IMG/VR virus record: IMGVR_UViG_3300027986_000001
Span: 1-64,000 of that record
Reading direction: 5' to 3' (one strand)
Source: a virus
Taxonomy: Duplodnaviria; Caudoviricetes
Length of the DNA: 64,000 nt
The notes under the pieces were generated by a model that ran no database searches, had not been told where the DNA came from, and saw only the letters and a list, made by a program, of their open reading frames with translations. Below are positions 1 to 63,385 of the stretch, piece by piece. The translations under genes and the position numbers were made by a program. Each line of letters starts with the position of its first letter. Positions within the stretch are counted from its first letter, which is position 1.

Positions 1-157
1 AAGTCTCTAGAGTGTCGATTACTCCGCTGTCGATGTTCACTTCGCACCTCCAAACCGCATCCTGATAGTCCGAATGCGCCCATGCTGCTGTACTTCGCGG
101 CGCTCCAGCATGGCTAGGGTAGCCAGCCGGGCCTGTACAGCCGTCGAAGCGGAAAAA

Positions 158-11034: not shown

Positions 11035-11490
11035 ATGAGCAAGAGCGGAATCTTTATGGGGACGACCGAGGCCCCGATTCACCGCAGCATACAGGAGATA
11101 CACGAGCTTTTGGTGCAGGCCGGTGCGACCGAGGTTTCGTCGGTCTACAGCCAAGGCCACATCTCCGGCATGACCTGGGCGATGACCATCGAAGGGAAGT
11201 CGCTGCGGTTCAAGATGCCCGCCAGGGTTGAGGCTTTGAAGCAGCAGTTGCTGAGCCAGTACCGTCGCGGCCCGCGAGGCGATACCGACATCTCAGTCAA
11301 GGCCGAGCGTATCGCTTGGCGGCAACTTTTCCGCTGGGTGCAGGCGCAGGTGGCGTTTGTTGAGACCGGCATGGCACAGCGGCACGAAGTGTTTATGCCA
11401 TACGTGCAGAGCCCCAATGGGCAGACTATGTTCGAGTTGTTTCACGAGACGCAATTCAAGCGTATCGAGGCTCCCGGTAAAAAGTCTTGA
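11035..11490 (+). CDS. conserved phage hypothetical protein (S..EI..LL...GA...AER.AWR....WV.AQ.A...EVFMPY)
   Basis: Family motif; leaderless promoter TTGACT 11000/CATACT 11023. Confidence 0.75.
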   Translation: MSKSGIFMGTTEAPIHRSIQEIHELLVQAGATEVSSVYSQGHISGMTWAMTIEGKSLRFKMPARVEALKQQLLSQYRRGPRGDTDISVKAERIAWRQLFRWVQAQVAFVETGMAQRHEVFMPYVQSPNGQTMFELFHETQFKRIEAPGKKS

Positions 11491-11519
11491 CTTCGCGAAT
11501 TTCTGCCGTTATAGTTCTT

Positions 11520-11690
11520 GCAGTGTTGCATGTGTTCTCTCCAACTGCGGTTCGAAGCGGATTCCCGGTGACCTGGGGAGGTGAACGGTAGTCCGCTTCG
11601 GTTTTACTATTGGCCATCTTAGGGAACAACCACACAGAAACCGGAGACATGATCCGGGTCATGGCGGGCGACGGGTCCCGCCACTTTTCT
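11520..11690 (+). ncRNA. putative structured small RNA
   Basis: Own promoter (TTGACT 11487, 17 bp, TATAGT 11510), stem CGAAGCGGA/TCCGCTTCG, terminal hairpin TGGCGGG/CCCGCCA + T-tract; no good ORF. Confidence 0.5.
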
Positions 11691-11916
11691 GATCTCGCCG
11701 CTCTTGACTTCCTCGTCTTTCCGCCTCATACTTCATCCAACTGAGCCGCATCGCGAATACCCCCTAACACACCGAGGCGGCTACTCCTATCAGGGCGTGG
11801 AGATCACGATCCTCCGCGCCCTGAAAACAAAACTCTTGACTTTTGACTTGGCGGGAATTACTCTTGACGTGTCGGCAACAGCCGAACATCAAAATACACG
11901 AAAAGGAGGTTGTCTT

Positions 11917-12585
11917 ATGGCAACCAGCACCGCAACACCAAAGGCAGTTGTTTCAATTCCGGCCCCGAAGTTTGGGGAGGCCGAGTTCGAGATCATCGGG
12001 ACTGAGGTTTTAGTAATCCACAGGTTCTCCGCCAAAACCAAACAGCAAATGAAATCAAAGATGGAAGAAGGTAAAAGTGCGGGCAGCAAGAAGAACCGCG
12101 AGGCCACATCGACTGATGATTTGTACCAAGCGGCCCGGTACATCAGCCCTGAAGGGTGGGATGGATTTCACGCCGCATCAATCCGCAATGCAATGATAAG
12201 CGCCTGCCGCTTAGTGGGCTACAAGATGACTCTCGCAAAAATGAGCATCTTTGTTTTGGCGGACGGGCACGACGCAATCGAGCCTCAGATTCCACTGGTC
12301 CGCATCTATGGCGAGCCTAAAAAACAAGAGGACATGGCGCGCGTGGAAACCGGCCAGCCGTACGTGACGGTGCGTGCGGCGTACCATGACTGGAGCGCCA
12401 AGGTCCGCATTCGTTGGGACTCTGACCAGTTCAAGTTGGAGGATGTTAGCAATCTGCTTTCAAGAGTAGGATTGCAGGTAGGTCTATGTGAGGGCAGACC
12501 GGACTCCAAAAACTCCTGCGGTATGGGCTGGGGCCTATTCCGTATCAAGGGGAGTGAAGACAATAAATTAGAGGCAGCAGCGTGA
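11917..12585 (+). CDS. solo RAMP superfamily (Cas7/Csm3-like) protein, putative guide-RNA-binding effector
   Basis: AAGGAGG RBS; beta1 motif FEIIGTEVLVIH, GFHAASIRNAM (cf. RAMP iPgsslKGalR), C-terminal Gly-rich loop GLQVGLCEGRP...GMGWGLF; 222 aa. Confidence 0.7.
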   Translation: MATSTATPKAVVSIPAPKFGEAEFEIIGTEVLVIHRFSAKTKQQMKSKMEEGKSAGSKKNREATSTDDLYQAARYISPEGWDGFHAASIRNAMISACRLVGYKMTLAKMSIFVLADGHDAIEPQIPLVRIYGEPKKQEDMARVETGQPYVTVRAAYHDWSAKVRIRWDSDQFKLEDVSNLLSRVGLQVGLCEGRPDSKNSCGMGWGLFRIKGSEDNKLEAAA

Positions 12586-13008
12586 CAAATCCGACTATCA
12601 TCGCAGAATTGAAAAGGGTAGCCGCCGAACATGGCGGCTATCTCCGCCCGAAGGATGTTGTTAAGGCGGCCCGTGAGGAAACCTCGCCATTACACAGCCA
12701 GTTCACCTGGGATAACAATCTCGCCGCTGAAAAGTACCGCCTGCATCAAGCGCGGCAATTAATCTCGGTGGTGGTCGAGTACACGGGGCCTGAAATGAAT
12801 CAGATGAGCCGCGTGTTCGTCTCCTTGACTGAGAATCGGCGTGAGGCGGAAGGGTACATTGAAACCGCCGTCGCAATGTCTGACCCGAGAAGACGCGAAA
12901 GGCTTTTAAAAGGATGCGCTCTTAGAGCTGCGTGCGTTTCAAAAAAAGTATGCTGATCTTGAGCAGTTGGCTAAGGTTTTCGCCGCTTTGGATGACGTGG
13001 CGGCTTGA
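12582..13008 (+). CDS. small partner protein of the RAMP gene (L.P..VV.AA....SPLH..F.WD...AA..YRL.QAR.LI); 1-nt frameshift near 12908-12911
   Basis: GTGA overlap with RAMP stop; removing one A in TTTAAAAGG gives ...LLKDALLELRAFQKKYADLEQLAKVFAALDDVAA* ending 13008. Confidence 0.7.
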
Positions 13009-13632
13009 GTTCGGTTTGGTTCGGCTGGGCAGGTAGGGAGCGGCAAGGTGGGATGAGGCTCGTCCCGATCAAGGCAAGGTTCGGCAGGCGAGGGATGGTG
13101 GGTTATGTTAGGTTGCGGCGCGTAACGGGCTGTCTCGGTCGGTAGTGGGAGGCAAGGTTGGGCAGGAGCGGCCAGGGAGGGTCCGTTAAGCTGTGGAATA
13201 GCGGGGTGAGTTTTGGCAGGTGTGGCAATGAATGATCTGCCGGGGCGAGGAGGGATTTAGAGAGGTCTGGCAGGCGCGGACTTGTGTGGCAGGCATTTGG
13301 TCGGGATGGCAGCGGAATGTCCTGGAAGCGCAGGCTAGGGCTGGAATGGTCCGGGTTGGTATGGATAGGTGTTGCGGGCGATGGCAAGGAAAGGCCGGTA
13401 TGGAGGGGGCTGCAGGGGACAGGTCTGATGGGGGCAGTTGCGGCTAGGACTGGCTGGATTCGGTTTGGCGGGCCTGGACAGGATGGCCTCGGAGCGCCTG
13501 GGTCAGGCCCGGCCTGTATGTGGCGCGGCAGGCAAGGAAAGCTGGAGCTGGGTGCGTTGTTGTTGGCATGGAGTGGGAGGGCAGGCGAGGGATGGACAGG
13601 CGAGCAGTGGAATGGAAATGCAGGAGTGGAAA
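13009..13632 (+). ncRNA. main array of GGN-NN pentamer repeats, units delimited by GGCA(GG); putative guide RNAs
   Basis: 5-nt GG periodicity; GGCAGG at 13028, 13083, 13161, 13215, 13269, 13288, 13527, 13580; several units exactly 54 nt (10 pentamers + GGCA). Confidence 0.8.
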
Positions 13633-13644
13633 AAGGGAGGCGGA

Positions 13645-14460
13645 ATGAGTCCAGAACAAAACGTGAAAAAAGTTGCAATCAACACAATTAGCGTTGATCC
13701 AACGTTGCAAATCAGAGTCGATTTCGACACAGGTGTCGTCAAGGAGTACGCGGCAATCGTTGCGGACAGGGATATGGACCCTGTAACTCTCTTTGACACG
13801 GGAAAGGCGCTGCTACTTGCGGATGGAGCGCACAGAAGGGCGGCTTACATAAAGGCCGGTAAAACGGAAATCCCAGCCGTAACCGTCAAGGGCACGCACT
13901 CAGATGCACTGCGATATTCAATCCAGAAAAATTGCAGGCATGGCATCAAGGTCACGAACCAGGACAAGCGTCGAGCGGCCAGTTTGGCGGTTTTAGACGC
14001 CGATCTTGCCAAGTTGCCAGACGCGGAACTCGGAGAGCTGATCGGCGTGAGCGGCACCCTCGTTGCGGATTGCCGACGTGGAGAAACTCCAGCCGCAAAA
14101 CGCGAAAGAGCCGCAAGCAGAAAATCGAAGAACGGCCAAGGCCCGGCAGTGGTTAGCGTGACAGCGCATGAAAGGAGAAAAGTTGGCGAGACTCGACCGA
14201 CCAAGGCAATGTGCCTAAAGTCAATCGAGTCATGGACAAACGACAGCCTTGTCGATGAGGCGGATATTATTAAGCTGTTCGAGTCGGCCAAGGGCGAGTA
14301 CGTGTTCCTACCCAAAGAAGGCGGCGATTTAAAGGTCACGGTTGTCGGTAAGACGGGCCGGGCGCAGATCGCGGATATAAAAATGATCGTCAAAGACCTA
14401 AATTTTGAGGAGATCAAGCTGAAGTCGGAGAAGTTCGTGATATCAGCGGAGAAGGCATAA
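13645..14460 (+). CDS. ParB/Srx-like N-terminal domain protein with HTH
   Basis: LQIRV...V.EYA...PV.LF....LLADGAHR..A; N..HG...T..DKRRA; HTH DAELGELIGVSGTLV; GGGAGG RBS before ATG 13645. Confidence 0.8.
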   Translation: MSPEQNVKKVAINTISVDPTLQIRVDFDTGVVKEYAAIVADRDMDPVTLFDTGKALLLADGAHRRAAYIKAGKTEIPAVTVKGTHSDALRYSIQKNCRHGIKVTNQDKRRAASLAVLDADLAKLPDAELGELIGVSGTLVADCRRGETPAAKRERAASRKSKNGQGPAVVSVTAHERRKVGETRPTKAMCLKSIESWTNDSLVDEADIIKLFESAKGEYVFLPKEGGDLKVTVVGKTGRAQIADIKMIVKDLNFEEIKLKSEKFVISAEKA

Positions 14461-14476
14461 TGATTCACGGTCTCCT

Positions 14477-14554
14477 GGTGCGGCAGGCAAGGTGGGGCAA
14501 GGTAGGTTTGGGGCAGGATCGGTCCGGCGTGTAAGGGCAGGCGAGGCGCGGCAT
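14477..14554 (+). ncRNA. orphan pentamer array B (one full 10-pentamer unit 14486-14535 between GGCA delimiters)
   Basis: ggca ggcaa ggtgg ggcaa ggtag gtttg gggca ggatc ggtcc ggcgt gtaag ggca. Confidence 0.8.
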
Positions 14555-14602
14555 TCTCTTGACTTTTGCCTCGCTTGCCGTTAGCCTTGGCTTAACAAAA
14601 CT

Positions 14603-14911
14603 ATGGGGTCAACAACCAACCGATGGCAGTCGCCGGTCAGGCCGCGAGAGCTGCGCCGCATGCTGCGGGAGAAAGAGATCAAGATGGCCCCGATCCCGCC
14701 CATGCCCCCAGAGTACACGGACTACCGGCAGAAGCGTCTACGGTTTGCTGTTAGCTGTGCGGTCCTGTTCTTGAAAGGCAAAGACTACGAAGGCATAGCT
14801 CGAAAAGTCGGAATCCGGCGGTCGATCTCTAAACAAAACTTGCAACTCTATATTTCCAAGGGCGCGAAGTTTCTCATAGACAGGGGCTGTTTTATCGGGT
14901 TAAAGACATGA
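14603..14911 (+). CDS. basic protein, probable HTH DNA-binding
   Basis: GKDYEGIARKVG...SKQNLQLYISKG; promoter TTGACT 14559/TAGCCT 14582. Confidence 0.6.
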   Translation: MGSTTNRWQSPVRPRELRRMLREKEIKMAPIPPMPPEYTDYRQKRLRFAVSCAVLFLKGKDYEGIARKVGIRRSISKQNLQLYISKGAKFLIDRGCFIGLKT

Positions 14912-18814: not shown

Positions 18815-21046
18815 ATGGCGCGTGACGCCGGGATAGACGCCCTAGTCGAGTACTACGACCGCCATATTCCTGACCGCTTCGGATTCAAGCCGGAGGAGTG
18901 GGTACAGCTTCCGCAGGCGCAGCAAATCGCAATGCTAACCCCGCAGGAACGACAGGCGATATTCGAGCAAGTGCAACTCTGCAAGTCCAGCTTTGAATAC
19001 GCTGCGCGCAACTATTTCTGGTTGGTGAACAACGAATCAAAGGACCAACTCTTCAGTCTCTGGGAGAGCCAGTATCTGGTCCTAGAAACGATGCGTCGGA
19101 TTAAAGAACGCGGCAAGGCGCAGAAAATTTTCGTGATCAAGGCCCGCAGACTCGGATGTTCAACTTTGATCGAGGCCCTGATTGCCTGGAGGGCAATTTT
19201 CTTCCGCAACGTGTACGGAATCGTAATTTCAGTTGACGAGGACGATGCGGCCTACCTGTTCGGATTCATGCAGCACTTCTACGACAAACTGCCGTGGTGG
19301 ATGAAGCCGGAGATCTCGTCCCGCGAAATCAAAGGCGGTCTAATATTTGACAGAAAAGACCCAAGTTTACGTGCCGTAAATCCGGGAAATAACTCGGAGG
19401 TCAAAGTTCAGTATTCCACGCAGTTCTCTGGTGTCGGCCAGGGCCGCCGCGTAAGTGCGGCTCACATTAGCGAAATGAGTGACTACGAACAAAAGCGCGC
19501 TGAGGAGATCGTAATGGAGGATCTCACGCCAGCTATCCATCCTACGCCGGAAAACTTTGCCTTCATCGAAACAACCGGCAAGGGAACTGGCAATATGACT
19601 CACCGCCTATGGCGGGCGTCTGAAAAGTTGGCCGAACGGGCGGAATGGTATCCCTTGTTTCTTGCGTCATTCTTCGAGCACAGTCGAACGATATTCGTTC
19701 CTGATGAGTGGAAACCGCAGCGGCCAGAGTTGGCCATTCGCGAGCGAGTCCGAAAGGAATGGGTAAAGTGCAATCACTGTAATCAGTTTCAGCACGCCAT
19801 AGAAGATCGGGTGAAGATGCTGGATGCTACCTGCCCAATGTGCTTAAAGGGGAAAATGCTGGAGGTTATCCTGACCCCTGGTCAGCTTGGGTGGATGGAG
19901 GAGCGCAGGATTCAGGCCGAGGCCAACGGTCGTGAGGCGGTCAAGAAGTACAGGCAGGAATTTTCGATCTCGGCGGAGGAGAGCTTCCAGGTTAGCGGTT
20001 ATTCAGTTTTTGATGACCAGTGCTACGAGAAAGTCACGGAAACGATCGAAGACCCGGAGCATAATGCTTACGTAAAAGTCGGCCTGATTGGCAACCCAGA
20101 CGGTAAGTTCCACGGCTATAATCCCGACACCAAAAAGTGCTACGCCGAGGGCTGCACCGACGATCACCGCATGCTGTCGCCGATGGACGCGCTGTTCACG
20201 ATCTACCGCGATCCAGTTCCAGGCGCTGAATATTCTATCGGCTGCGACGTGTCCGAGGGGATCGGGGAAGACTATAGCGTTATCTTCGTGAACCGAATCG
20301 GGGGGCAGCATGCTCCGGATGAGGAGGTCGCCGTCTGGCGGGACAACTGGACCGACCCAAAGGCCGTATCGTTCTTCTGTAACGCGATTGGCCGCATGTA
20401 CAATGACGCCTTGATGGCTATCGAGTACAACCTCTACAACATTGTCGGCGACGACGTGCTGTACAAATACCAGTACCCCAATATCTACATCTGGAAAAAC
20501 AAAGAAAACCGCCACGGCGTTCTAACCCACAAATACCATTGGTGGACGAAGGCCGGGAGCAAGACGCTGCTCTACCAGACGGCGAGATCATGGCTCCGAT
20601 CCGGCGCGTGGATCATTCATTCCAAATTATTCCGCGACGAGATGACGACCTTTGTCAAAGAAGGTTTTGAGGAGAGAAACGCAAAACACGCCCAAGATCA
20701 GCACGATGATTTGCTTATGGCAGCAATGATCAGTCTCTACTGCCCCCATGAACTCGATACGCAGGAAGGCACGGGCAGAATACCTGTCCCGCAAATCGAG
20801 GACAACAATGCTCCCAAGGACTGGTTAATGCGCTGTGGTGCCTGCGGCGGGGAATGGGAGGCCGAGAGGCCGGACGTGTTTTACTCCTGCCCGCTGCCGG
20901 ATGAGGTAAATGGCGGCGTATGCGGGTCGATTCAGATCACCGGCAAGCGCAAGATTGAGCAGAGAAACGAAGTAAGGATAGACTTCCCGCCGGGGAGTGT
21001 TGAGGAAGCTGGCTCCAACGCTGAATTAAGTTGGAACCAGCTTTGA
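18815..21046 (+). CDS. terL: terminase large subunit
   Basis: Walker A VIKARRLGCST, Walker B AHISE, IETTGKG, nuclease IGCDVSEGIGEDYS, AIEYN, HDDLLMA. Confidence 0.95.
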   Translation: MARDAGIDALVEYYDRHIPDRFGFKPEEWVQLPQAQQIAMLTPQERQAIFEQVQLCKSSFEYAARNYFWLVNNESKDQLFSLWESQYLVLETMRRIKERGKAQKIFVIKARRLGCSTLIEALIAWRAIFFRNVYGIVISVDEDDAAYLFGFMQHFYDKLPWWMKPEISSREIKGGLIFDRKDPSLRAVNPGNNSEVKVQYSTQFSGVGQGRRVSAAHISEMSDYEQKRAEEIVMEDLTPAIHPTPENFAFIETTGKGTGNMTHRLWRASEKLAERAEWYPLFLASFFEHSRTIFVPDEWKPQRPELAIRERVRKEWVKCNHCNQFQHAIEDRVKMLDATCPMCLKGKMLEVILTPGQLGWMEERRIQAEANGREAVKKYRQEFSISAEESFQVSGYSVFDDQCYEKVTETIEDPEHNAYVKVGLIGNPDGKFHGYNPDTKKCYAEGCTDDHRMLSPMDALFTIYRDPVPGAEYSIGCDVSEGIGEDYSVIFVNRIGGQHAPDEEVAVWRDNWTDPKAVSFFCNAIGRMYNDALMAIEYNLYNIVGDDVLYKYQYPNIYIWKNKENRHGVLTHKYHWWTKAGSKTLLYQTARSWLRSGAWIIHSKLFRDEMTTFVKEGFEERNAKHAQDQHDDLLMAAMISLYCPHELDTQEGTGRIPVPQIEDNNAPKDWLMRCGACGGEWEAERPDVFYSCPLPDEVNGGVCGSIQITGKRKIEQRNEVRIDFPPGSVEEAGSNAELSWNQL

Positions 21047-21047
21047 G

Positions 21048-21117
21048 GGCACGAGCCATTTCGCGCCTGACCATTCCGTACTGGTCCTGTCCTACCCGCT
21101 TCGGTCCTCACCACGCC
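21048..21117 (-). ncRNA. orphan pentamer array C (14 pentamers)
   Basis: Minus strand: ggcgt ggtga ggacc gaagc gggta ggaca ggacc agtac ggaat ggtca ggcgc gaaat ggctc gtgcc; TATACT just upstream. Confidence 0.8.
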
Positions 21118-21176
21118 CGAAATCAGTATAGTACAAAACTCTTGACTTTGAGCAAAATGTTTTACATACTTCTCTC

Positions 21177-22314: not shown

Positions 22315-22331
22315 CGGCCCGGTGTTGACGT

Positions 22332-22425
22332 GGCAGGAGTGGCGAGGTCAGGATAGGTTAGGTCCGGTCAGGCGCGGCGCAGGGAGGAGAGATATGGCAT
22401 GTTCCGGTCTGGCAGGGCAGGAAGG
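22332..22425 (+). ncRNA. orphan pentamer array D (15 pentamers after GGCA)
   Basis: ggca ggagt ggcga ggtca ggata ggtta ggtcc ggtca ggcgc ggcgc aggga ggaga gatat ggcat gttcc ggtct ggcag. Confidence 0.82.
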
Positions 22426-29459: not shown

Positions 29460-30428
29460 ATGAGAAAACTGAACGGAGTTCCGGTGAAGATGAAGATCAC
29501 GGAAGAAGAATTCCGCGATCTCGTCCTAAGCCAAAAGAAGTCGGACATAAGCATCGCCCACGAACTTGGTGTCAGTAGCTTGACTATTGCGCATTGGCGT
29601 CAGCGTTTCGGTCTGCCGAATGCCTATTCAAATCGAGAGAGAAAGCCGCGCGTGTTCAGGCAAAAGCGGAGCAAGCTCTGTGTGACAAAAGAGCAACTCT
29701 ACGATCTCTACGTAGTCCAGGGATTGCCACAGAGGGAAATCTCTCAACGGTGCGGTGTCAATCAAGTGACGGTTTCAAATTGGCTAAAGCACTACGGAAT
29801 CGCCGCGAGGCCGGACGGTGGTCGCATTGCCGTGCTTTTGGACGAAAAAGAATTGCAGCGCTTGTATCATGTCGAGAAGTGGAGTATGCAGGCAATCGCG
29901 CAGCATTTTAAGTGCGGCGAATCCACAGTCCGGCAGAATTTGATTAGGTTCGGATTACAGATCGACATGAAAGAAGTTGCGCGAAGGAAGTTGGAAAAGT
30001 TGGCTGCTGCTTCACCCTATCGGTTCGAGCATCGCGGATACGTTAAGGTAATGGTTCCAGATCATCCGGCAGCGAACAAGGGTGGGTATGTCGATGAGCA
30101 TAGATTTACGGCGGAAAATGCCATAGGGAGGCCGCTAATCCCTGGGGAGCAAGTACACCACATTAACTTGCGTAAAAGGGAGAATGCGGTCGGAAACCTC
30201 GCGGTCCTGCCGACCAAGCGCGACCATTTTCTTGTCCATCGATATCTGGAACGTGTCGCCGTATATCTTCTCGGATTGACTAGTGTTCGCCCGGAGCCGA
30301 TTCAGTTTAAGACCCAAGTTTTTTGGGCCGGACGGTGGGTGCTTGAGCTTGATATGCTTCGTGATATCCGCCCGATGGCACCGGCGGTCGAGACCAGGGA
30401 AGCGGCAAAGGAAGAGACAGTGAACTAG
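29460..30428 (+). CDS. HNH homing endonuclease with repeated HTH modules
   Basis: GYV....PDHP.A...GYV.EHR..AE..IGR.L...E.VHHIN....N...NL. Confidence 0.9.
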   Translation: MRKLNGVPVKMKITEEEFRDLVLSQKKSDISIAHELGVSSLTIAHWRQRFGLPNAYSNRERKPRVFRQKRSKLCVTKEQLYDLYVVQGLPQREISQRCGVNQVTVSNWLKHYGIAARPDGGRIAVLLDEKELQRLYHVEKWSMQAIAQHFKCGESTVRQNLIRFGLQIDMKEVARRKLEKLAAASPYRFEHRGYVKVMVPDHPAANKGGYVDEHRFTAENAIGRPLIPGEQVHHINLRKRENAVGNLAVLPTKRDHFLVHRYLERVAVYLLGLTSVRPEPIQFKTQVFWAGRWVLELDMLRDIRPMAPAVETREAAKEETVN

Positions 30429-63118: not shown

Positions 63119-63385
63119 TTAGGATTTCTCCTCCACTCCGTTGGCCTCATCCATGTAGTCCGTTATTCCGCGCTGGCGGATATTATCCGGGATCTCGGAG
63201 TAGGCCCAGTCGGACAGACGGACGCAATGGGTGAGTGACTGGAAGCACATAAGTCCGACCTTCTTGCCGACCAAGACGGTTACGTTAGGGTTGGTAGCCG
63301 CCTCGCGGGCCGCTTTCTTGGCCGCGTCCACTTCATCCTCGCCGTCAACCACTAAGCCAAGCACTACGTCGTACAAGGCCATCAC
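63119..63385 (-). CDS. hypothetical protein
   Basis: ORF in operon. Confidence 0.5.
   Translation of the reverse strand: MMALYDVVLGLVVDGEDEVDAAKKAAREAATNPNVTVLVGKKVGLMCFQSLTHCVRLSDWAYSEIPDNIRQRGITDYMDEANGVEEKS

What the first reader, a model, noticed from the sequence alone, without database searches (positions are those of the whole stretch)
11917..13632. Phage-encoded solo RAMP protein + partner + array of GGN-NN pentamer repeats: candidate non-CRISPR RNA-guided system
Seen: a 222-aa gene with RAMP/Cas7-Csm3-like motifs (beta1 IIGTEVLVIH, GFHAASIRNAM, C-terminal Gly loop GLQVGLCEGRP..GMGWGLF) is coupled to a small partner gene. It is followed at once by ~620 nt of non-coding DNA built from 5-nt units: a near-constant GG(C/T/A) plus a variable dinucleotide. 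GGCA cuts these into blocks, often exactly 10 pentamers + 4 nt = 54 nt. There is no cas1/cas2, no Cas nuclease and no repeat-spacer CRISPR. Established: Cas7-group RAMPs polymerise along guide RNA with a fixed nt step. Inference: each subunit grips one GGN and displays NN for target reading, and GGCA marks processing sites. From memory (unverified), this resembles the recently reported phage VIPR-type RAMP/GGY-NN systems, so the class may not be wholly new.
Basis: partly seen in the sequence, partly recalled or inferred. Interest (0 to 1): 0.95.

Follow-up and report, generated by a model that had tools for sequence, protein, structure and literature searches.

The report
Phage VIPR system, staggered guide array
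This complete 100-kb uncultured phage carries a VIPR system, a CRISPR-related, phage-borne RNA-guided DNA silencer first described in 2026 preprints: a Cas7-like protein, a small DNA-binding partner and about eleven guide RNAs written in five-base units. It is a well-supported new example of a known kind, not a new class.

Summary
11917-12585 encodes a 222-aa protein with a confident RAMP/Cas7 fold. A profile of its family finds only the solved SUSP1 Vipr protein in the PDB (E 3.5e-6). A translationally coupled partner gene follows (12582-13008). It is winged-helix-like and is broken here by a 1-nt frameshift.

Next comes 624 nt of non-coding DNA (13009-13632). GG recurs there every 5 nt (z = 5.6 against shuffles). 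GCAGG slips punctuate it, which is the "staggered vrRNA array" of the VIPR preprint. The same gene-partner-array order is seen in 13 of 15 related loci.

The genome is a complete phage and has no Cas1 match.

Weaker points:
- The array is more degenerate than in relatives (69% regular units).
- Only two block spacings are exactly 54 nt.
- The partner gene is frameshifted.
- No natural target was established. One guide (13221-13270) has two exact in-frame matches in viral contigs, a family A DNA polymerase and an SF2 helicase; a reversed control gave none.

This scan has already noted VIPR systems on other DNA (over 200 notes in at least 125 genomes). Verdict: new member of a known kind, moderate-to-low interest.

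The parts
11662..11683 (+). Terminator-like hairpin followed by a T-run. It closes the upstream unit and marks the 5' limit of the VIPR transcription unit.
   Evidence: 7-pair stem with 6 G-C pairs, then a CTTTTCTGAT tail.
11701..11732 (+). Best promoter candidate for the operon: CTCTTGAC, 18 nt, CATACT. Two weaker copies of the CTCTTGAC box follow at 11833 and 11861.
   Evidence: CTCTTGAC occurs 15 times in the window against 1.9 expected (0 of 100 shuffles reach 15). Aligned copies share a CATACT-like hexamer 18 nt downstream and mostly sit in front of genes. The sigma-70 scan also flags 11704-11732. Function is inferred.
11917..12585 (+). vipr: a 222-aa single-RRM RAMP protein. The thumb hairpin spans about residues 135-156 and carries R153. 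The glycine-rich loop spans about residues 185-206.
   Evidence: - AlphaFold2 model: pLDDT 92.6, pTM 0.86.
- Foldseek top hits are all Cmr4, Csm3 or Cas7-11 (E 2e-5, probability 1.0).
- VIA-align: Z 11.2 to Csm3 (rmsd 3.8 A, 146 residues aligned).
- The family profile hits PDB 36pp 'SUSP1 Vipr protein' at E 3.5e-6, the only significant PDB hit.
- phrog_4652, E 4e-11.
- More than 3100 homologues.
12582..13008 (+). vap-like accessory gene: a winged-helix-like domain plus a C-terminal helical hairpin. A 1-nt frameshift near 12909-12911 interrupts it. The open frame as it stands ends at 12956 (124 aa); the conserved C-terminal 32 residues continue in another frame to 13008.
   Evidence: - phrog_15946, E 7e-15.
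- Homologues are 146-171 aa.
- Alignment A2 places the shifted-frame piece 12910-13005 on the conserved C-terminus.
- The AlphaFold2 model of homologue P0273 has pLDDT 91.2.
- Its best structural matches are weak but nearly all winged-helix DNA-binding domains (Z up to 6.6).
13009..13632 (+). vrRNA array: about 112 pentamers of the form (H)NNGG / GGH-NN, split by 4-nt CAGG slips into about 11 blocks. GCAGG occurs at 13029, 13084, 13162, 13216, 13270, 13289, 13330, 13412, 13528, 13581 and 13620. The array starts at the vap stop codon and ends at the ribosome-binding site of the next gene.
   Evidence: Homologous arrays lie in the same position and strand in 13 of 15 related loci.
13221..13270 (+). 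Guide 'G3', 10 pentamers between two CAGG slips. It is the only main-array guide with exact external matches.
   Evidence: Its NNx decoding has 2 exact hits in IMG/VR, both in frame: a family A DNA polymerase at L031:5527 and an SF2 helicase (Helicase_C region) at L032:1934. The same dinucleotides in reversed order gave 0 hits.

Best explanation
This is a VIPR (Viral Interference Programmable Repeat) system of a complete, uncultured 99.9-kb tailed phage.

The proposed mechanism follows. Every step is an inference for this locus, resting on what the preprints show for Escherichia phage SUSP1.
1. A phage promoter (CTCTTGAC-N18-CATACT at 11701-11732, with two weaker copies) drives one transcript through vipr, vap and the array.
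2. Vipr protomers polymerise along the array RNA, one per pentamer. The thumb arginine (R153) and the glycine-rich loop (E192, R194) grip each GG plus the third base. The two variable bases are left exposed.
3. The array is a 'staggered' one. Each guide ends in a constant GGCAG unit whose last G is also the first G of the next guide. Blocks are therefore 5n+4 nt long, and the transcript yields about 11 guides of 3 to 14 units.
4. Each filament reads double-stranded DNA by the two-in-three code (NN, skip one, NN ...), which matches codon positions 1 and 2. It blocks transcription of the bound gene, most likely in competing phages or other mobile elements.
5. The winged-helix Vap protein assists on DNA. 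In this phage its C-terminal hairpin is lost to a frameshift.
For: - RAMP fold at high confidence.
- The family profile's only significant PDB match is the solved SUSP1 Vipr protein (E 3.5e-6). The single sequence also finds only that entry (E 1.2).
- Functional residues. Three SUSP1 residues reported as gripping the GGY bases (alanine substitutions of R138 or D177 abolished silencing) align to R153, E192 and R194. R194 is invariant and R153 nearly invariant in a 70-sequence family alignment; E192 is only the family's majority residue.
- vipr - vap - array synteny, same strand, in 13 of 15 related viral or MAG loci.
- GCAGG punctuation: 63 of 97 spacings in relatives equal 4 mod 5, with 54 the commonest. 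This fits the Fig. S18 description of 1-nt overlapping vrRNAs.
- Period-5 GG signal, z = 5.6.
- Phage context: terminase, portal and major head genes; a 127-bp terminal overlap and 100% estimated completeness.
- No Cas1, no CRISPR-like repeat, no Rfam match.
- No self-target above chance, as the preprint also reports for its systems.
- Guides of related phages match this phage's own genes in frame more often under the 1-nt-skip rule: 3 guides with 3 or fewer mismatches, against 0, 0, 1, 0 and 0 in five valid controls.
Against: - No RNA, binding or repression data exist for this phage or this clade.
- The array is noisier than in relatives: 69% GG-ended units against 73-95%. Six of the ten GCAGG spacings do not have the expected 5n+4 length, which suggests indels.
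- vap is frameshifted.
- SUSP1's stacking tryptophan W178 aligns to an invariant glycine. The alignment of its H17 to H35 is weak, and that position is not conserved in the family.
- No convincing natural target was found for the window's own guides. Six of seven main-array guides gave nothing above chance or no exact hit. The two exact hits of the seventh lie in unrelated genes.
- The VIPR type (I-VII) could not be assigned, because the preprint's supplementary tables are not held.
Confidence: 0.9

Rival explanations
1. It is a genuine VIPR locus in descent but is decaying or inactive in this phage. On this view the vap frameshift is real and the main array has accumulated indels and degenerate units. 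The work would then be done, if at all, by the cleaner stand-alone guides elsewhere in the genome using the intact Vipr protein.
For: - 1-nt frameshift in vap against 18 intact homologues.
- 69% regular pentamers, against 73-95% in relatives.
- Only 4 of 10 GCAGG spacings have the expected 5n+4 length, against 63 of 97 in relatives.
- Cleaner short arrays at about 14470-14555 and 22330-22425.
Against: - vipr is intact and keeps every invariant family residue.
- Vipr plus vrRNA repressed targets without vap in SUSP1; vap only enhanced protection.
- The frameshift could be an assembly error.
Confidence: 0.25
2. The pentamer tract is not a guide array but a DNA-level element, for example a centromere or iteron field for the ParB-like gene that follows it (13645-14460), or a G-rich structural or regulatory tract. 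The RAMP gene would be merely adjacent.
For: The next gene has a ParB-like N-terminal domain (phrog_1033, E 2e-8), and the tract runs up to its ribosome-binding site.
Against: - Across relatives the tract travels with vipr and vap, not with the downstream gene, which differs from locus to locus.
- The signal is strand-specific, always on the vipr strand.
- The 3+2 pattern of fixed and variable bases, with 5n+4 punctuation, is the published vrRNA architecture.
Confidence: 0.03
3. It is a remnant of a CRISPR-Cas type III or IV effector module (a stray Cas7) captured by the phage, and the neighbouring repeats are unrelated.
For: The best structural matches are Csm3, Cmr4 and Cas7-11.
Against: - Sequence identity to these is only 8-14%.
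- No Cas1 in the genome and no CRISPR-like repeat near the locus.
- The family of more than 3100 proteins has its only significant PDB sequence match in Vipr.
- Synteny with pentamer arrays is conserved.
Confidence: 0.02

Closest known systems
VIPR systems with staggered vrRNA arrays (bioRxiv 10.64898/2026.04.26.720920, Results and Fig. S18 legend)
   Same: - A single RAMP gene, a small accessory gene and an adjacent array of GG-anchored pentamers.
- Guides that abut with a 1-nt overlap, seen here as GGCAG|G, giving 5n+4 blocks.
- Phage-borne, with no cas genes.
   Different: - The third base is relaxed to C, T or A (G depleted) rather than strictly a pyrimidine.
- The array is unusually degenerate.
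- vap is frameshifted.
- The VIPR type could not be assigned, and the preprint did not confirm staggered arrays by RNA sequencing.
Type II VIPR of Escherichia phage SUSP1 (Vipr, PDB 36pp; vap1; vrRNA1-4), bioRxiv 10.64898/2026.04.26.720920 and .720927
   Same: - Homologous protein at profile level (E 3.5e-6).
- SUSP1 residues R138, D177 and R179 align to R153, E192 and R194.
- An accessory gene predicted to bind DNA.
- The same expected mechanism: one protomer per pentamer and a 1-nt-skip reading of dsDNA.
   Different: - Pairwise similarity is marginal (E 1.2).
- SUSP1 guides are separate RNAs of about 100 nt with 9-16 repeats and a conserved 3' pseudoknot tail. Here guides are contiguous, are punctuated only by GGCAG, and no tail or Rfam structure was found.
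- SUSP1 W178 aligns to glycine here.
- The G-loop is longer (GxxxGxxEGRPxSKNSxGMGWG).
CRISPR type III Cas7-group RAMPs (Csm3, Cmr4, Cas7-11 domains)
   Same: RRM core, thumb hairpin and glycine-rich loop. Polymerisation along a guide RNA with periodic base flipping. Z 9.6-11.2, TM about 0.45.
   Different: 8-14% identity. No second RRM, no partner Cas subunits, no CRISPR array, and a 5-nt rather than 6-nt step. The target is dsDNA read discontinuously (from the preprints), not RNA.

Membership tests
VIPR system | Vipr protein has the RAMP fold: RRM core, thumb and glycine-rich loop. | tested here: met
   AlphaFold2 pLDDT 92.6. Foldseek top 30 hits are all Cas7-group RAMPs (best E 2e-5). VIA-align Z 11.2 to Csm3. 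The thumb hairpin (about 135-156) and G-loop (185-206) are read from the model's secondary structure.
VIPR system | Sequence homology to an experimentally characterised Vipr protein. | tested here: met
   A profile of 70 family members hits PDB 36pp_D 'SUSP1 Vipr protein' at E 3.5e-6. The next hit has E 0.68. The single sequence gives only E 1.2.
VIPR system | Conservation of the residues that grip the GGY bases in SUSP1 (H17, R138, D177, W178, R179). | tested here: inconclusive
   R138 aligns to R153, D177 to E192 and R179 to R194. R194 is invariant and R153 nearly invariant in the family; E192 is the majority residue. W178 aligns to invariant G193. H17 aligns to H35 only in a weak N-terminal alignment, and that position is not conserved in the family.
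VIPR system | Adjacent vrRNA: at least four tandem YNNGG-type pentamers (or NNNGG and similar variants) in non-coding DNA next to vipr. | tested here: met
   112 pentamers, 77 of them ending in GG, at 13009-13632. The lag-5 GG signal has z = 5.6.
VIPR system | Minimal two-gene locus (vipr plus a vap accessory gene) outside any CRISPR-Cas context. | tested here: met
   The coupled partner gene is conserved in most related loci. No Cas1 in the complete genome, no CRISPR-like repeats near the locus, and no PADLOC family for either protein. vap is frameshifted here.
VIPR system | Carried by a virus or provirus (typical of the family, not obligatory). | tested here: met
   Terminase, portal and major head genes. 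The virus record has direct terminal repeats and 100% estimated completeness.
VIPR system | vrRNAs are expressed, processed and bound by Vipr. | not testable with these tools
   No transcriptome or biochemistry is available for this uncultured phage.
VIPR system | Guides match natural DNA targets by the 1-nt-skip (NNx) rule. | tested here: inconclusive
   - Window guides: nothing above chance in the phage's own genome or in relatives.
- Exact IMG/VR scans of three guides gave 0 hits.
- Guide 13221-13270 gave 2 exact in-frame hits, against 0 for a reversed control.
- Relatives' guides matched against this phage: 3 near-matches under skip 1, against at most 1 in each valid control.
Staggered vrRNA array (Fig. 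S18 subtype) | Consecutive guides overlap by 1 nt, so block lengths are 5n+4. | tested here: met
   - Relatives: 63 of 97 GCAGG spacings equal 4 mod 5, and CAGG is the dominant 4-nt slip.
- Window: 54, 54, 19 and 39 fit; 55 and 53 are off by one; the remaining four are irregular.
CRISPR-Cas class 1 effector | A Cas7 gene within a cas operon that has a repeat-spacer array. | tested here: not met
   No Cas1, no repeat-spacer array near the locus, and a single RAMP gene.

The most novel reading that the evidence does not exclude
In this clade the main-array guides may be aimed not at one rival's particular gene but at conserved protein motifs, read through codon positions 1 and 2. Guide 13221-13270 spells V-(K/N)-(I/M)-L-G-(D/E)-G-(F/L)-(D/E)-L. 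It matches exactly, and in frame, the Helicase_C region of an SF2 (ResIII-type) helicase and a family A DNA polymerase in two unrelated viral contigs. One guide could then silence a whole gene family across rival phages or host defence islands. The constant GGCAG unit would act as a built-in ruler or stop for the Vipr filament in place of a structured tail.
Probability: 0.15. Interest if true: 0.55.

Novelty: new member of a known kind. Interest (0 to 1): 0.3.

Why it matters
VIPR is a very recent addition to the RNA-guided systems. The preprints propose it as the ancestor of the CRISPR RAMP proteins, and it offers a new gapped recognition code.

This locus adds a complete environmental phage genome whose Vipr family is very large: more than 3100 proteins in the word-indexed search and about 2000 clusters at 50% identity. 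Its arrays are of the staggered kind, which the preprint described but did not verify by RNA sequencing.

The features worth a specialist's look are:
- the relaxed, lineage-specific third base (T-only, C-only or A-dominant arrays in different relatives);
- the GGCAG punctuation in place of a structured tail;
- hints that related phages aim guides at each other's terminase and other genes.

None of this changes the picture already in print.

Tried and rejected
- Self-targeting. Eight guides were decoded with 0-3 skipped bases and matched against the phage's own 99.9-kb genome. All best scores were at shuffle level. The same was true against 109 kb of related loci.
- Exact NNx scans of IMG/VR for guides at 13335 (24 specified bases), 13167 (20) and 13473 (18) gave 0 hits each.
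- One metagenome scan was run with the 13335 guide, its two degenerate units masked. It gave 15 hits, all in 21-41% GC contigs, with chance-level agreement at the masked units, so they were rejected as chance.
- The guide at 13221 gave two exact hits. No other guide converges on those loci, so no target element is claimed.
- Relatives' guides against this phage and relatives. Over all 89 guides there is no enrichment at the 80-90% match thresholds. Only the subset of guides with 10 or more units shows a small excess. The skip-3 control is contaminated by unmasked array-to-array matches.
- Rfam scan of 11400-14800 gave nothing, so no hammerhead-type spacers and no known tail were found. Tandem Repeats Finder sees no array because the NN positions vary.
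- Pfam gave no family for Vipr, Vap or the neighbouring proteins. PADLOC gave none for Vipr or Vap.
- Vap fold: Foldseek gave no match at E 0.001 or better, and VIA-align gave Z 6.6 or less. 'Winged-helix-like' is therefore a weak call.
- A quick re-test of earlier notes that orphan guides spell their neighbour genes gave only 12/16, 19/30 and 18/30 with my crude tiling. This neither confirms nor refutes them.
The preprint's supplementary tables are not held, so the VIPR type was not assigned.
Full report
**What is there**

The window is the first 64 kb of a single 99,896-bp contig. Its last 127 bases repeat its first 127, and the collection classes it as a virus record with direct terminal repeats and 100% estimated completeness. 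Large terminase, portal and major head protein genes lie downstream of the finding. The setting is therefore a complete tailed-phage genome of 56% G+C.

The locus has the following layout:
- A terminator-like hairpin at 11662-11683.
- A 190-nt leader carrying three copies of CTCTTGAC.
- An AAGGAGG ribosome-binding site and an ATG at 11917.
- A 222-aa ORF ending at 12585.
- A second ORF starting at GTG 12582, overlapping the first gene's stop codon.
- From 13009 to 13632, DNA in which no frame is conserved and GG recurs every five bases.

**Is the periodicity real?**

- G autocorrelation peaks at lags 5, 10, 15 and onward (+0.27, +0.25, +0.24).
- GG-N3-GG pairs number 53, against 27.5 +/- 4.6 in 1000 dinucleotide-preserving shuffles; none reached 53.
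- A dynamic-programming tiling gives 112 pentamers. Of these, 77 end in GG. They are separated mainly by 4-nt slips, most often CAGG.
- In the unit written GGN-NN, the third base is C 24, T 24, A 18 and G 11.
- GCAGG occurs 11 times, with spacings of 55, 78, 54, 54, 19, 41, 82, 116, 53 and 39 nt.

The '10 pentamers + 4' block occurs cleanly only twice in this window.

**The protein**

- Pfam finds nothing. PHROGs places the protein in phrog_4652, of unknown function (E 4e-11).
- The family is very large: 3121 proteins at E 0.001 or better in the word-indexed search, and 1997 clusters at 50% identity in the exhaustive search.
- An AlphaFold2 model built on 70 diverse members is confident (pLDDT 92.6, pTM 0.86).
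- Foldseek's best 30 PDB matches are all Cas7-group RAMPs: Cmr4, Csm3, Csm5-like chains and Cas7-11. The best has E 2e-5 and TM about 0.45-0.48.
- The Foldseek-independent aligner gives Z 11.2 to Csm3 (rmsd 3.8 A, 146 residues aligned) and Z 8 or more to 29 chains; those listed at that level are all CRISPR RAMPs.
- By sequence, the single protein finds only one PDB entry, 36pp 'SUSP1 Vipr protein', at E 1.2. The family profile finds the same entry at E 3.5e-6, and nothing else is significant.
- In that alignment SUSP1 R138 (thumb), D177 and R179 (G-loop) fall on R153, E192 and R194. The cryo-EM preprint reports these residues as gripping the GGY bases, and alanine substitutions of D177 or R138 abolished silencing. 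R194 is invariant and R153 nearly invariant in the family; E192 is the family's majority residue.
- SUSP1 W178 falls on an invariant glycine.
- The H17-to-H35 correspondence rests on a weak stretch of alignment.

**The partner**

It belongs to phrog_15946 (E 7e-15). Its homologues are 146-171 aa, whereas this copy is 124 aa.

Alignment shows that the window's frame is normal up to '...RERLLK'. After that, the conserved C-terminus (LL-DAL-EL--F--KY--L-ELA-VF-A) is encoded in another frame, at 12910-13005. This means a 1-nt frameshift near 12909-12911. It may be a real mutation or an assembly error.

A confident model of an intact homologue (pLDDT 91.2) shows a domain of about 100 residues plus a long helical hairpin. 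The best structural matches to the domain are weak but almost all are winged-helix DNA binders: MecI, forkhead, ArsR/SmtB, MarR and Z-alpha domains, with Z 6.6 or less. This fits the preprint's statement that the vap genes of several VIPR types are predicted winged-helix or HTH DNA-binding proteins.

**Conservation of the arrangement**

- Twelve IMG/VR loci and three MAG loci (Elusimicrobiota and Planctomycetota bins) encode homologues at 45-80% identity.
- In 13 of the 15, a GG-period-5 tract lies on the same strand, usually straight after the partner gene. In L003 it lies between the two genes, and in L006/L013 on both sides.
- The two near-identical exceptions, L007 and L008, do not reach my threshold.
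- Relatives' arrays are cleaner (73-95% GG-ended units) and show the grammar plainly. GGCAGG punctuates them, and 63 of 97 spacings equal 4 mod 5, with 54 nt the commonest.
- The third base is lineage-specific: T in L003, C in L002 and L014, A in L012, and mixed in the window.

**What it is**

These are the defining features of VIPR systems (bioRxiv 10.64898/2026.04.26.720920):
- a lone RAMP protein (Vipr);
- a vap accessory gene;
- vrRNAs made of pentamers in which a fixed GGY alternates with variable NN;
- carriage mostly by phages and proviruses.

[quoted passage not shown] The junction ...GG-CAG|G-YNN... gives exactly that. GGCAG is the last unit of one guide, and its final G is the first G of the next, so block lengths are 5n+4.

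The companion structure paper (10.64898/2026.04.26.720927) shows one protomer per pentamer, the GGY bases flipped out, and NN pairing to dsDNA with every third target base skipped.

A third preprint (10.64898/2026.10.15.759431) shows phage-satellite competition through VIPR. A fourth (10.64898/2026.10.21.760802) recovers 99 VIPR-like clusters with 5-nt periodicity, some with non-GGY motifs.

The class is therefore known, and this locus is a new member. This scan itself holds more than 200 notes on VIPR systems in at least 125 other genomes.

**How it probably works here (inferred)**

The motif CTCTTGAC is strongly over-represented: 15 copies against 1.9 expected. In most copies a CATACT-like hexamer follows 18 nt later, in front of a gene. 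The copy at 11701-11732 is a full match, directly after the upstream terminator, and I take it to be the operon's promoter.

No terminator separates vap, the array and the next gene (ParB-like N-terminal domain, 13645-14460). Guides are therefore presumably cut out of a longer transcript.

Which enzyme cuts at GGCAG|G is unknown. The preprint did not validate staggered arrays by RNA sequencing.

**Targets**

- Guides decoded by the NNx rule have no match above shuffle level in the phage's own genome. This agrees with the preprint's finding of no self-targeting. There was also nothing above chance in 109 kb of related loci.
- Exact scans of IMG/VR for three guides found nothing.
- A metagenome scan found only chance matches in AT-rich contigs.
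- Guide 13221-13270 (20 specified bases) has two exact IMG/VR matches. In both, the skipped base falls on the codon's third position. One is in a family A DNA polymerase (L031:5527). The other is in the Helicase_C region of a ResIII-type SF2 helicase (L032:1934).
- The same dinucleotides in reversed order gave none.
- My rough independent-codon estimate, which assumes about 4e10 bases in the collection, expects about 0.1 in-frame hits. The result is therefore suggestive. The two genes are unrelated, however, and no other guide converges on either contig, so I claim no target.

Conversely, I matched 50 guides of 10 or more units, 46 of them from relatives, against this phage and its relatives. 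[quoted passage not shown] All three come from relatives' arrays and hit this phage in frame: the large terminase at 20027, a 1815-aa ORF at 72410, and 63291. This weakly supports mutual targeting among related phages.

**Caveats and verdict**

- There are no expression or binding data.
- The array is degenerate and vap is broken, so the locus could be partly decayed in this phage.
- The VIPR type is unassigned.

None of this affects the identification. I hold it at about 0.9: a VIPR system with a staggered guide array, a new member of a known kind.

Noticed in passing
window 14470-14555 (+), 22330-22425 (+), 21052-21125 (-): Three short stand-alone pentamer tracts with the same CAGG-punctuated grammar lie in intergenic DNA far from vipr. 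They are probably solo vrRNAs. Earlier notes of this scan say each spells an allele of its neighbouring gene. My crude re-test gave 12/16, 19/30 and 18/30 against the neighbours, which decides nothing.
   Followed up: partly
window 11701, 11833, 11861, 14556, 21139, 32027, 32832 and others: CTCTTGAC followed 18 nt later by CATACT is a strongly over-represented motif: 15 copies in the window against 1.9 expected, and 18 in the genome. It usually sits in front of genes and is probably this phage's own promoter consensus.
   Followed up: partly
window 12905-12915: One extra base, relative to 18 homologues, shifts the frame of the vap-like gene and detaches its conserved C-terminal helical hairpin. 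This is either a real mutation or an assembly error.
   Followed up: partly
window 20027-20055, 63291-63325; G000 72410-72438 (outside the window): Guides from the arrays of related phages (L012, L005, L001) match this phage's large terminase, a small ORF and a 1815-aa ORF. The scores are 17/20, 21/24 and 18/20, all in frame under the 1-nt-skip rule. Five valid controls (skip 0, skip 2, three shuffles) produced one match this close in total.
   Followed up: partly
L012:5080-5810 and L012:3875-4627: One relative uses GGA-NN units almost exclusively. Its Vipr G-loop differs from the family consensus at several positions (…EGRMNSRQSNGCGWG against …EGRPDSKNSCGMGWG). This hints that third-base preference may co-vary with the loop, but it is a single case.
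   Followed up: no
L036:2539 (record of L001): An 8-unit guide of relative L001 matches, at 15/16, the gene immediately downstream of its own array on the same contig. This is a possible example of a guide lying next to the gene it spells.
   Followed up: no
G000 97996-98192 (-), outside the window: A run of about 200 nt of GGGGAC/GGGTAC hexamers, with period 6 rather than 5. It looks like a Gly-Asp/Gly-Tyr repeat at the end of a coding region and is not part of VIPR.
   Followed up: no
window 1-127 and G000 99770-99896: The contig's last 127 bases repeat its first 127, so the assembly closes on itself and the phage genome is complete, about 99.77 kb.
   Followed up: yes
window 29460-30428: An HNH endonuclease gene with HTH domains (phrog_7545, E 1e-36) sits directly after the major head protein gene. 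It looks like a homing-endonuclease-type insertion in the structural module.
   Followed up: no
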